This document shows positions 1 to 3,000 of a DNA stretch of 5,912 bases, piece by piece. This stretch comes from a virus (lineage: Duplodnaviria; Heunggongvirae; Uroviricota; Caudoviricetes). The position numbers are program-made. Positions within the stretch are counted from its first letter, which is position 1; every line of letters starts with the position of its first letter. The DNA is taken from IMG/VR virus record IMGVR_UViG_2698536443_000004; one strand, written 5' to 3'.

Positions 1-3000
1 GTTCATGGCTGAACTCCTGAAAATGGCTGTGAAAATATCGCCCGCGAAATGCCAGGCTGATTAGGAAAACAGGAAATGGGGTTAGTGAATGCTTTTGCTT
101 GATCTCAGTTTCAGCATTAATATCCATTTTTTATAAGCGTCGACGGCTTCACGAAACATCTTTTCATCGCCAATAAAAGTGGCGATAGTGAATTTAGTCT
201 GGATAGCCATAAGTGTTTGATCCATTCTTTGGGACTCCTGGCTGATTAAGTATGTCGATAAGGCGTTTCCATCCGTCACGTAATTTACGGGTGATTCGTT
301 CAAGTAAAGATTCGGAAGGGCAGCCAGCAACAGGCCACCCTGCAATGGCATATTGCATGGTGTGCTCCTTATTTATACATAACGAAAAACGCCTCGAGTG
401 AAGCGTTATTGGTATGCGGTAAAGCCGCACTCAGGCGGCCTTGATAGTCATATCATCTGAATCAAATATTCCTGATGTATCGATATCGGTAATTCTTATT
501 CCTTCGCTACCATCCATTGAAGGCCATCCTTCCTGACCATTTCCATCATTCCAGTCGAACTCACACACAACACCATATGCATTTAAGTCGCTTGAAATTG
601 CTATAAGCAGAGCATGTTGCGCCAGCATGATTAATACAGCATTTAATACAGAGCCGTGTTTATTGAGTCGGTATTCAGAGTCTGACCAGAAATTATTAAT
701 CTGGTGAAGTTTTTCCTCTGTCATTACGTCATGGTCGATTTCAATTTCTATTGATGCTTTCCAGTCGTAATCAATGATGTATTTTTTGATGTTTGACATC
801 TGTTCATATCCTCACAGATAAAAAATCGCCCTCACATTGGAGGGCAAAGAAGATTTCCAATAATCAGAACAAGTCGGCTCCTGTTTAGTTACGAGCGACA
901 TTGCTCCGTGTATTCACTCGTTGGAATGAATACACAGTGCTTATTCGTACTAATAAAATACCCAATTTTCTGTTTCTTGGTTGTGTCCAAAGTTATATTC
1001 AATATCTGGTGTTGATGTATCAATATTCTTCATACCATCAACAAGAGTTGATACAACAGCCAAATCTTGTTTGATTCTCATTAAATGGTATTTCTTCCGG
1101 CGCAATAAACTTTCAATGGCAAGTTTCTTCGTTGGGAATGCAAAAGATCTTTCTGCATTTTTTGCTACTTTCTTAATTGCATATCTATTTCTCCTTTGTT
1201 TCCATTCCTGTAACCACTGATTTGGTGCTGGTTTAAAATTAACAATCCAATGCGCAGGAACCAACCATGCATAATGCTCTGTCTGATGAAAAGCTATATA
1301 TTGAAGTGCGAATATTTTTATCCCATCTTCTTCAACTGTCGCCTGGAATCTCCAGAAAACAGGCATTCCATCATGTTCAGTTTCTGATTCAGGAAAAGGT
1401 ACGCTCCATGATTTTGTCATATCTCACCTCAAATAAGTGGTTTGCTGCCTAATTTCATTTTCTGGCGACCAACACAAGTCACCTCGCCGTCAGTTGTTTT
1501 GATTTCCGGTAGCCTGCCGCGTAAATGGCTACGTTTGGAAGACATACACCAGTTTCTGGTTGCTTATGTCCAAACTCATTCGCGTACACAATGGCCGCTC
1601 GCTCCAGATTGCGTCTGTATTCTTTCTGTTGCCAGATCACGTCCTGTGCCATGAACTTAATTGGCTTAGCGTCTTCTATGCGCTCAGGCGTTTCGTGAGT
1701 ACCTTTAGCCTGAATCTGCGCTCTGCTTAGAGTAGGGCGGTGTAATACTTCTGAACTTATTGCTTCTTCGCGGGCCAGTACGCCGTTAGCTAATGCCTTT
1801 GCCTTTAAACGCTCACGACGACGAGAACGTGAATTGCCTTTGAACTGAGTTCTGCGTGTCATATAGACCTCCTGATGAACTTTGGTGGTGTGGTAGGTGG
1901 GAGACCCATTTCGACCTGTTTCGGCCTACTTCAATTCGGCAATAGTCCCGCAGGCCTCGCCGCTTTACGTGCGACATATTCCCGTCCATGAACCCTTCAC
2001 CACACCCCAAAGTTCACTTTGGTTATTGCGCTTTGTCAGCGCCGTAGATTCATATTCGAATCGTTGTATATTCACCGCCCTGGTGAGTAATGCGTCCTGC
2101 TGACGACGATAATAATGAACCAATAGTTCGACATTATCAAGAACTATTGGTACGAATTTTGGTGATTTATTAACTCTACGAAGTATGATTCTGATATATA
2201 AGGAAATTTATTTTTGAAAATGTGGCTGATGAAGGTTATGCGGCAGGGATCATAACTGCATGGTTTAGCGAGTTACATCAATAAATACAATTGGTTATGT
2301 TTTTTAGGTGGGCGAACGTGAGGCAAAGAAAACCCGGCGCTGAGGCCGGGCTAGATTTTAAAGTATTTATCTTTTAGAGATGTAGATGTAAAACTTTTCG
2401 CCTTTGAAAATTTTTTGTCATCAGAAGGGCTTATGAACTCATCTTTTTTGTAGGGAACCGCTAATGCTGCATCACGTCTGCGAGGCAGCTTGCTTACTTC
2501 CTCGCGCTTTTTCATGATCAGTTATCCTTTAATAACCTATACAGTTTTGTAGGGGTACATCCTGAGGATATTGTTAAGTTCGTAGCACGCCTTTTCCGCC
2601 CATCATCGTATAAACGAAAACCAGTAGTAGACGAATTTTCTGCGTCAAAAACTATAGACAGTATAGCGTCCCCAGACTTTTTTTGCCATTCGCATGTGCC
2701 GTTAGTTGGTTTCGTCATCTGTAGACGCCAGTCAAGAACGCCATCACTTATAGCTGAGAGATCGTTTAGTACATCTAGTACGGATTGATATCTTTCATTT
2801 GGATCTACATGAATGCATTTGTTCACTATTGTTATTAATTTTTTATGTATATGGGGAGGATACTCTTTTAATGGATAGCAGCCATTAATTATCGACTCTC
2901 TGAGTTGTTCAATCGTGCTAAATGCAGATCTTTCTCTTTCAAAATTATCATGTCCAACACACATTCTATATATGGTTAATCCTGCCTGATATATGTCATA

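What the first reader, a model, noticed from the sequence alone, without database searches (positions are those of the whole stretch)
2112..2157. Candidate pL overlapped by a perfect 11-bp palindrome that differs from the oR operator motif
The only good sigma70 match upstream of nutL sits inside ACCAATAGTTC-N11-GAACTATTGGT. The oR sites are built on an ACT-N3-AGT or AGTACG core, which is absent here except for a partial 11 of 17 match at 2140-2156. Either oL is highly divergent, or pL is controlled by a different symmetric element or regulator, or my pL assignment is wrong. All three are worth resolving because oL normally mirrors oR.
Basis: seen in the sequence. Interest (0 to 1): 0.45.

Follow-up and report, generated by a model that had tools for sequence, protein, structure and literature searches.

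The report
Phage 933W left operator and pL
The "palindrome" is the two known repressor-binding sites (OL1 and OL2) of Shiga-toxin phage 933W, lying in mirror orientation across its early leftward promoter pL, so it is an ordinary, already described part of the phage's lysis-lysogeny switch.

Summary
The window is the immunity region of Stx2 phage 933W (99.9% identity). The palindrome (ACCAATAGTTC 2119-2129 / GAACTATTGGT 2141-2151) and the promoter-like site (TTGATA-17-CATTAT, minus strand, 2140-2112) are both real. The claim that the palindrome differs from the oR motif is wrong. Each arm lies inside a 15-bp site (2116-2130 and 2140-2154) with the same core as oR1 and oR3, G-W-A-C-Y-N3-R-G-T-W-C. 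That core has four exact matches in the window against 0.04 expected. A matrix built only from oR1-3 ranks the two arms third and fourth, above oR2. With oR1-3, the two sites reproduce exactly the published position statistics of the five natural 933W operators, which include only two OL sites. In natural mosaics the element follows cI, not N/nutL. Phages with the same N/nutL but lambda-type operators carry lambda oL1-3 at the same place and register. A phage with a different N but 933W cI keeps the palindrome. Variants with 98-100% identical CI break the palindrome but keep both cores. Across 42 distinct distal (OL-type) operator pairs found in viral contigs, the same layout recurs: operator, -35, operator, -10. 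Verdict: known OL1/OL2 plus pL, with the pL call correct and no second regulator needed.

The parts
2116..2130 (.). OL1, the promoter-proximal CI operator (TGAACCAATAGTTCG). It lies in the pL spacer and overlaps the -10 by 2 bp. It contains the left arm of the palindrome.
   Evidence: Exact core match. PWM from oR only scores 13.05, rank 3 in the window. Half-sites fit the published statistics (PMC3317979). Positionally equivalent to lambda oL1 in mEp234.
2140..2154 (.). OL2, the promoter-distal CI operator (AGAACTATTGGTACG). It abuts and overlaps the first base of the -35. It contains the right arm of the palindrome.
   Evidence: Exact core match. PWM score 12.32, rank 4, above oR2. It has T at 3' and C at 6', as PMC3317979 states for OL2. 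Its centre is 24 bp from the OL1 centre, the same spacing as lambda oL1-oL2.
2119..2151 (.). The reported palindrome: arms 2119-2129 and 2141-2151 with an 11-nt spacer. It arises because OL1 and OL2 are near-identical sites in mirror orientation (12 of 13 core positions).
2135..2140 (-). pL -35 hexamer, TTGATA.
   Evidence: Same register (+32 against +31 from the shared anchor) as the lambda-type pL -35 in mEp234. A -35-like hexamer starts the spacer in all 42 related oriented pairs.
2112..2117 (-). pL -10 hexamer, CATTAT, with a 17-bp spacer.
   Evidence: Register +9 against +8 in mEp234. CATTAT, CATATT or CATCAT sits at the same place in 36 of 42 related pairs, at 17 bp in 35 of them.
2104..2105 (-). 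Predicted pL transcription start. It is also the left boundary of the immunity-specific DNA segment.
   Evidence: The annotated 5' nucleotide of the pL transcript in mEp234 maps to window 2104. Identity to mEp234 is 95% for 2000-2104 and 25% for 2105-2160. The start is inferred, not mapped here.
2086..2094 (-). nutL boxA-like sequence.
   Evidence: Transferred from the mEp234 annotation. It lies within the nutL annotated in AF125520.
2028..2042 (-). nutL boxB hairpin (GCGCTGACAAAGCGC on the minus strand).
1479..1862 (-). N antiterminator gene, the first gene of the pL operon.
   Evidence: Pfam N_peptide, E = 2e-15.
2331..2352 (-). tM terminator, which ends the pRM (cI-stk) transcript upstream of OL.
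4489..5196 (-). cI repressor gene, encoding the protein that binds OL1, OL2 and oR1-3.
   Evidence: Pfam HTH_3 plus Peptidase_S24.
5189..5259 (.). oR3 (5189-5203), oR2 (5221-5235) and oR1 (5245-5259), the reference operators.
   Evidence: Annotation of AF125520. Sequences.

Best explanation
The 33-bp palindromic element is the left operator (OL) of phage 933W. It consists of two 15-bp CI repressor sites, OL1 (2116-2130) and OL2 (2140-2154), with centres 24 bp apart, bracketing and overlapping the early leftward promoter pL (-35 at 2140-2135, -10 at 2117-2112, start near 2104-2105, minus strand). In a lysogen, CI dimers on OL1 (in the promoter spacer and -10 edge) and OL2 (against the -35) exclude RNA polymerase. 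This silences the N-nutL-cIII-kil-gam operon and, through N, the cascade leading to Shiga toxin. After RecA-stimulated CI cleavage, pL fires. The perfect 11-bp inverted repeat is a by-product: both sites are near-identical versions of the same pseudo-symmetric operator placed in mirror orientation. Shown here: sequence identity with 933W, the shared operator core, co-inheritance with cI, and the conserved promoter/operator geometry. Taken from the literature: CI binds two OL sites and represses pL. Inferred: the exact start site, and Cro binding to the same sites.
For: (1) The window is 99.9% identical to 933W and 99.7% to phi24B. (2) GWACYNNNRGTWC has 4 exact matches in the window (0.04 expected, 0 of 200 shuffles reach 4): both arms plus oR1 and oR3. 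(3) A symmetrised PWM built only from oR1-3 ranks the arms third and fourth (13.05 and 12.32, against 12.25 for oR2). Random windows contain 0.02-0.04 sites that good. (4) The ten half-sites of oR1-3 plus these two sites give G at position 2 in 9 of 10 (the exception is one half of oR2), invariant A4 and C5, and T at position 6 in 7 and C in 3. This is exactly what PMC3317979 reports for the five natural operators. The 2140-2154 site has T at 3' and C at 6', as reported for OL2. (5) The literature reports two operator sites in OL, no OL3, CI binding to the left operator, and intact pL repression (PMC8065619; PMC5977221; PMC3064807; PMC10742460). (6) Natural swaps: mEp234 and HK97 share N and nutL up to window 2103-2104, then carry lambda oL1-3 in the same register (operator centres at +18 and +42 against +20 and +44). 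Stx2_13E027 has a different N and different cargo genes but a 99% identical CI, and it keeps both sites intact despite 17 differences in 2092-2350, with one in the spacer and none in either site. (7) 108 of 122 loci examined after a viral-contig scan with the operator-pair pattern encode CI homologues and 104 encode Cro homologues. 36 of 42 distinct distal pairs share the layout operator, -35, operator, -10. (8) The recognition-helix residues K42 and K46 are invariant in these CI homologues.
Against: No binding or transcript mapping could be done here. The primary papers that print the OL1 and OL2 sequences (Koudelka 2004, Tyler 2004, Bullwinkle 2011) are not held, so the coordinates are matched to published statistics rather than to printed sequences. 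The promoter match alone is no better than chance. The deposited 933W record annotates no oL or pL.
Confidence: 0.93

Rival explanations
1. The 33-bp palindrome is one symmetric binding site for a different regulator (another phage or host protein) that controls pL in place of, or in addition to, CI.
For: The arms are perfectly complementary over 11 bp, more than expected for two independent operator-like sites (P about 0.013). A distant lineage (L100, L118, L008) also has mirror-image distal pairs.
Against: Each arm is fully explained as a CI site. Natural variants with 98-100% identical CI (L010, L057, L051, L153) reduce arm complementarity to 9-10 of 11 while keeping both cores. Across the family, mirror identity ranges from 7 to 13 of 13 and is often lower than direct identity. 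The L100 group's mirror has the opposite polarity. No candidate regulator co-varies with the element apart from cI and cro.
Confidence: 0.03
2. The inverted repeat acts as a nucleic-acid hairpin: an RNA terminator or attenuator for read-through from pRM, or a DNA cruciform.
For: The RNA folds at -14.7 kcal/mol on the plus strand and -13.9 kcal/mol on the minus strand, with z-scores of about -4. The minus-strand stem is followed by a U-rich stretch, UCAUUAUUAU.
Against: Any perfect inverted repeat folds. The stem is AT-rich (4 G-C pairs of 11), the loop is 11 nt, and there is no uninterrupted U run. The terminator scan did not call it. The pL transcript starts downstream of it, and the pRM transcript ends at tM (2331-2352) upstream of it. 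There is no Rfam match. Palindrome-breaking variants persist in nature.
Confidence: 0.03
3. The palindrome and promoter match are chance features, and the real pL/OL lies elsewhere between N and tM.
For: The promoter match is 9 of 12, and such matches are no more frequent than in shuffles. An inverted repeat of at least 11 bp occurs in about 9.5% of random windows.
Against: No other promoter-like site and no other operator-like site exist in 2044-2330. The geometry is identical to lambda-type pL/oL in a phage with the same nutL. The architecture is conserved across the family.
Confidence: 0.01

Closest known systems
Phage 933W / phi24B OL-PL region (Koudelka et al. 2004; Tyler et al. 2004; Bullwinkle & Koudelka 2011; Bullwinkle et al. 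2012)
   Same: Same DNA (99.7-99.9% identity). Two operators at OL and three at OR. 15-bp sites with half-site C-G-(A/T)-A-C-(T/C). The half-site statistics match exactly (against PMC3317979).
   Different: Nothing of substance. The window's source additionally has an IS3-family element inserted in cII (5833 onward), outside the feature.
Phage lambda oL/pL, as annotated in mEp234 (EF120460) and present in HK97
   Same: Same position between the immunity terminator and nutL boxA. Same 24-bp operator spacing. Operator 1 lies in the promoter spacer and -10 edge, and operator 2 lies at the -35. The promoter register agrees within 1 bp.
   Different: Lambda has 17-bp sites of unrelated sequence (TATCACCGC...) and a third site, oL3. 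933W has 15-bp sites and no OL3. Lambda CI binds cooperatively and loops between OL and OR, whereas 933W repressor is reported not to bind cooperatively (PMC3317979, PMC3202840).
933W oR1-oR3
   Same: Same recognition core. oR3's left half-site, TGAACCA, is identical to OL1's.
   Different: The centres of oR1, oR2 and oR3 are spaced 24 and 32 bp apart and sit differently relative to pR: oR1 covers the start site and oR2 lies in the spacer. OL1 and OL2 are mirror copies of one another, whereas the oR sites are not.

Membership tests
933W-type CI operator | A 15-bp pseudo-dyad with G at position 2, A or T at 3, A at 4, C at 5 and T or C at 6 in both half-sites (PMC3317979). | tested here: met
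   Both 2116-2130 and 2140-2154 satisfy it exactly. There are only 4 exact matches in the window (0.04 expected).
933W-type CI operator | Scores like the bona fide oR sites on a model trained without it. | tested here: met
   The oR-only PWM gives 13.05 and 12.32, against 17.42 for oR1, 13.58 for oR3 and 12.25 for oR2. The next best site scores 8.66.
933W-type CI operator | Co-inherited with the cognate cI gene across mosaic phages. | tested here: met
   Replaced by lambda oL1-3 in mEp234 and HK97, which share N and nutL. Retained in Stx2_13E027, L010, L051 and L153, which carry 98-100% identical CI but differ in N or cargo genes.
933W-type CI operator | Physically bound by purified repressor (footprint or EMSA). 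| not testable with these tools
   Reported in the literature for two OL sites (PMC3317979, PMC3064807, PMC8065619, citing Koudelka 2004 and Tyler 2004). The primary papers are not held.
Lambdoid early leftward promoter-operator (pL/OL) | A leftward sigma-70 promoter between the immunity-region terminator and nutL/N, overlapped by repressor operators. | tested here: met
   TTGATA-17-CATTAT at 2140-2112 on the minus strand, with OL1 and OL2 overlapping it. tM is at 2331-2352, boxA at 2086-2094, and N at 1479-1862.
Lambdoid early leftward promoter-operator (pL/OL) | Three operators (oL1-3), as in the lambda paradigm. | tested here: not met
   No third core match or PWM hit in 2155-2330. This agrees with the published absence of OL3 in 933W (PMC5977221, PMC8065619). 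It is a known variant, not grounds for exclusion from lambdoid pL/OL in the broad sense.
Lambdoid early leftward promoter-operator (pL/OL) | A mapped transcription start and CI-dependent repression. | not testable with these tools
   The start is inferred at 2104-2105 by homology to the mEp234 annotation. Repression is reported in the literature (PMC3064807).
Intrinsic terminator | A G+C-rich stem with a short loop followed by a U run. | tested here: not met
   Not called by the terminator scan. The loop is 11 nt, the stem has 4 G-C pairs of 11, and there is no uninterrupted U run.

The most novel reading that the evidence does not exclude
The exact mirror-image relationship of OL1 and OL2 (12 of 13 core positions, about 1.3% expected for two independent operator-like sites) might be selected for its own sake. 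Possible reasons include giving a non-cooperative repressor two sites of matched affinity arranged symmetrically about the -35, or allowing cruciform or hairpin formation. A second, distant lineage (L100, L118, L008) has arrived at a mirror OL independently, with the opposite polarity.
Probability: 0.05. Interest if true: 0.3.

Novelty: already known. Interest (0 to 1): 0.08.

Why it matters
pL/OL of 933W gates N expression and, through the antitermination cascade, prophage induction and Shiga toxin 2 release, so it is medically relevant. It was characterised biochemically and genetically in 2004-2012. This analysis adds little new biology. It places OL1, OL2 and pL at explicit coordinates that the deposited 933W record lacks. 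It also shows that the operator, -35, operator, -10 layout and the GWACY-N3-RGTWC grammar are shared by a large family of CI/Cro switches in viral contigs.

Tried and rejected
(1) I tried to read the primary papers (PMC524894, PMC524892, PMC3133280). None is held, so I used the position statistics in PMC3317979 and statements in reviews.

(2) A full-text search for the operator strings returned only unrelated primer hits.

(3) A flank-anchored scan with both sites left as N returned mostly identical 933W copies, one informative variant (L153), and AT-rich chance hits. This limits how far an unbiased conservation test can go.

(4) Hairpin or terminator idea: the element folds, as any inverted repeat does, but it lacks terminator features and lies outside the predicted transcripts. 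Rfam finds nothing there.

(5) Mirror symmetry as a conserved family feature: rejected. Mirror identity ranges from 7 to 13 of 13 among distal pairs and is often below direct identity.

(6) A third OL site: none found.

(7) The operator-like site in stk (2768-2782) has A at position 6, which PMC3317979 reports as poorly bound, so I did not count it as an operator.

L003 and L004 were not exported to the script machine, so I worked from alignment A1 and the DNA search instead.

Full report
**Identity of the window.** Megablast against annotated phages shows that bases 1-5832 are 99.9% identical to Escherichia phage 933W (AF125520, 7587-13418) and 99.7% identical to phi24B. The deposited annotation, converted to window coordinates, is:

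- N at 1479-1862(-)
- a putative nutL at 2028-2094(-)
- the tM terminator at about 2329-2350(-)
- L0081, then stk at 2518-3564(-), L0083 and L0084
- cI at 4489-5196(-)
- oR3 at 5189-5203, oR2 at 5221-5235 and oR1 at 5245-5259
- cro at 5275-5502(+), followed by nutR and cII

Pfam confirms CI (HTH_3 plus Peptidase_S24), an HTH Cro, the N peptide, the Stk kinase and CII.

**Check of the observation.** The inverted repeat is real: ACCAATAGTTC (2119-2129) and GAACTATTGGT (2141-2151), 100% complementary, with 11 nt between the arms. The promoter-like site is real: TTGATA (2140-2135), 17 bp, CATTAT (2117-2112) on the minus strand. It is the only such site between N and tM. Neither feature is compelling alone. 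The promoter scores 9 of 12, and such matches are no more frequent in the window than in shuffles (12 found, 15.5 expected). A perfect inverted repeat of at least 11 bp with a loop up to 60 bp appears in about 9.5% of random windows of this composition.

**The arms carry the oR motif.** Written as 15-mers, the annotated oR sites are TGAACCATGAGTACG, AAAACTTTCAGTTCA and CGTACTGAAAGTACG.

- The core GWACYNNNRGTWC has four exact matches in the 5.9-kb window: 2117-2129, 2141-2153, 5190-5202 (oR3) and 5246-5258 (oR1). The expectation is 0.04, and no shuffle of 200 reached four.
- With one mismatch allowed, oR2 and one site inside stk are added.
- A symmetrised weight matrix built only from oR1-3 ranks 2116-2130 (13.05) and 2140-2154 (12.32) third and fourth in the window. 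Both score above oR2 (12.25) and far above the next site (8.66). Random windows contain 0.02-0.04 sites that good.

The two arms of the palindrome are therefore two operator-like sites with centres 24 bp apart.

**Agreement with published data.** Bullwinkle et al. 2012 (PMC3317979) describe five natural 933W operators (OR1-3, OL1, OL2), each 15 bp. Their reported features are:

- position 1 poorly conserved, with consensus C
- position 3 is consensus A, with T preferred
- positions 4 and 5 are invariant A and C
- position 6 is T in seven of ten half-sites and C in the other three
- OL2 carries non-consensus but favoured bases at 3' and 6'

The ten half-sites from oR1-3 plus my two sites give C in 5 of 10 at position 1, G in 9 of 10 at position 2 (the A is in oR2), A in 6 and T in 4 at position 3, A in 10 of 10 at position 4, C in 10 of 10 at position 5, and T in 7 and C in 3 at position 6. 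The 2140-2154 site has T at 3' and C at 6'. The only other core-like site, in stk, has A at position 6, so it cannot be one of the five.

Other held papers state that 933W has three sites in OR but only two in OL (PMC8065619), has no OL3 (PMC5977221), and has five operators in all (PMC10742460). For phi24B, whose immunity region is identical to that of 933W, the two left operator regions do not compromise pL repression, and CI shifts the left operator in bandshift assays (PMC3064807). I could not read the primary papers, so the match is to published statistics, not to printed sequences.

**Comparative evidence that the element belongs to the cI module.**

- mEp234 is a curated record that shares N and nutL with 933W. 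It is 95% identical to the window over 2000-2104 and only 25% identical over 2105-2160. In that segment it carries lambda-type oL1, oL2, oL3 and pL, and HK97 carries the same sequences there.
- The geometry is conserved. Measured from the last shared block (ending at window 2103), the lambda-type oL1 and oL2 centres lie at +18 and +42, the -10 at +8 and the -35 at +31. In 933W the two sites lie at +20 and +44, CATTAT at +9 and TTGATA at +32. The annotated 5' nucleotide of the pL transcript maps to window 2104.
- Conversely, Stx2_13E027 has a P22-gene-24-like N and different cargo genes, but a 99% identical CI and an identical Cro. It keeps both sites intact. Of 17 differences across 2092-2350, one falls in the spacer and none in either site.

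**Is the palindrome itself selected?** Among contigs with 98-100% identical CI, three variant types degrade the arm complementarity to 9-10 of 11 while keeping both cores:

- L010 and L057: OL2 = GAACTATAAGTAC
- L051: OL1 = GAACTAATAGTTC
- L153: OL2 = GAACCATTGGTAC

Of 122 loci then examined, 108 encode CI homologues (24-100% identity) and 104 encode homologues of 933W Cro. The pairs lie either in the cI-cro gap (OR-type) or hundreds to thousands of bases away (distal, OL-type).

In 42 distinct oriented pairs the layout is: upstream operator, a -35 (TTGACx, TTTACx or TTGATA), 5 nt, then the downstream operator, whose last C begins the -10 (CATTAT, CATATT or CATCAT). A qualifying -10 lies 16-18 bp from the -35 in 36 of 42 pairs, at 17 bp in 35 of them. 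This is the arrangement seen in the window, and it supports the pL call far better than the consensus score alone.

Mirror identity between the two distal sites ranges from 7 to 13 of 13 and is often lower than direct identity. Mirror symmetry is therefore not a family trait. It appears in the 933W lineage and, with the opposite polarity, in L100, L118 and L008.

Simulation of two independent operator-like sites gives at least 11 contiguous complementary bases 1.3% of the time. The mirror identity in 933W is therefore a mild curiosity, most simply explained by a shared origin or by convergence on one high-affinity variant.

The recognition-helix residues K42 and K46, which the 2012 paper assigns to reading operator positions 2 and 5, are invariant in 30 distinct helix variants from 140 loci. 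S41 is mostly P.

**Rival explanations.** The inverted repeat folds as RNA at -14.7 and -13.9 kcal/mol, with z-scores of about -4. This is trivially true of any perfect inverted repeat. The stem is AT-rich, the loop is 11 nt, and no U run follows. The terminator scan did not call it. It lies upstream of the pL start and downstream of tM, so neither major transcript should contain it. Rfam finds nothing there: the only hit in the window is the cIII thermoregulator at 313-371. No regulator other than cI and cro co-varies with the element.

**Mechanism.**

- Shown here: two CI-type operators overlap the only promoter-like site upstream of nutL and N, and they are inherited with cI.
- From the literature: CI binds two OL sites non-cooperatively and represses pL.
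- Inferred: CI dimers at OL1 (promoter spacer and -10 edge) and OL2 (-35 edge) occlude RNA polymerase. After RecA-stimulated CI autocleavage, transcription starts near 2104-2105, crosses boxA (2086-2094) and boxB (2028-2042), and expresses N. Cro probably binds the same sites.

**Verdict.** The element is the already characterised OL1/OL2-pL of phage 933W. Interest is low and the novelty rating is "already known".

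Noticed in passing
window 5833-5912 (and the cII ORF at 5641-5835): Homology to 933W stops at 5832. The last 80 bases match the end of an IS3-family element (IS629/IS1203), including the start of its orfA. cII is cut to 64 aa, against 99 aa in 933W. The exact junction was not found as one contiguous piece in any complete E. coli genome in the collection.
   Followed up: partly
window 2768-2782 (inside stk): The operator-like palindrome AGTACATCTAGTACG has one mismatch to the operator core (A at position 6) and is the best non-operator PWM hit (8.66). Published mutagenesis says A-T at position 6 binds poorly, so it is probably not a functional CI site.
   Followed up: partly
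window 313-371 (-): An Rfam Lambda_thermo (cIII thermoregulator RNA) match, 88.5 bits, full length.
   Followed up: no
window 1429-1545 (-): A 38-aa ORF just downstream of N ends in ...VTCVGRQKMKLGSKPLI. This is identical to the C-terminus of the P22-gene-24-like N protein of Stx2_13E027 (L003 3479-3904). It looks like a relic of a different N allele left at a recombination joint.
   Followed up: partly
window 2104/2105; L002 (mEp234) 998; L004 (HK97): The left edge of the immunity-specific segment coincides with the predicted pL start. Identity to the lambda-type phages mEp234 and HK97 falls from 95% to 25% at that point and recovers to 90% near the tM/Timm terminator (2281-2350).
   Followed up: yes
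L005-L124 (viral contigs); e.g. L014, L041, L070, L100: The grammar GWACY-N3-RGTWC, repeated 24 bp apart, marks a large family of CI/Cro switches (CI 24-57% identical to 933W CI). Each has an OR-type pair and a distal OL-type pair sharing a fixed operator, -35, operator, -10 layout. K42, K46 and W47 of the CI recognition helix are invariant.
   Followed up: partly
L100 7531-7567; L118 367-403; L008 1099-1135: In a distant lineage (CI 30-36% identical where a CI hit was found; none was found in L008), the distal operator pair is also a mirror pair (13 of 13 in L100: GAACTATTGGTTC / GAACCAATAGTTC). Its polarity relative to the -35 is opposite to that in 933W.
   Followed up: partly
AF125520 annotation (L001): The reference 933W record annotates oR1-3, pM, pR, nutL, nutR and tM, but has no feature for oL1, oL2 or pL.
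   Followed up: yes
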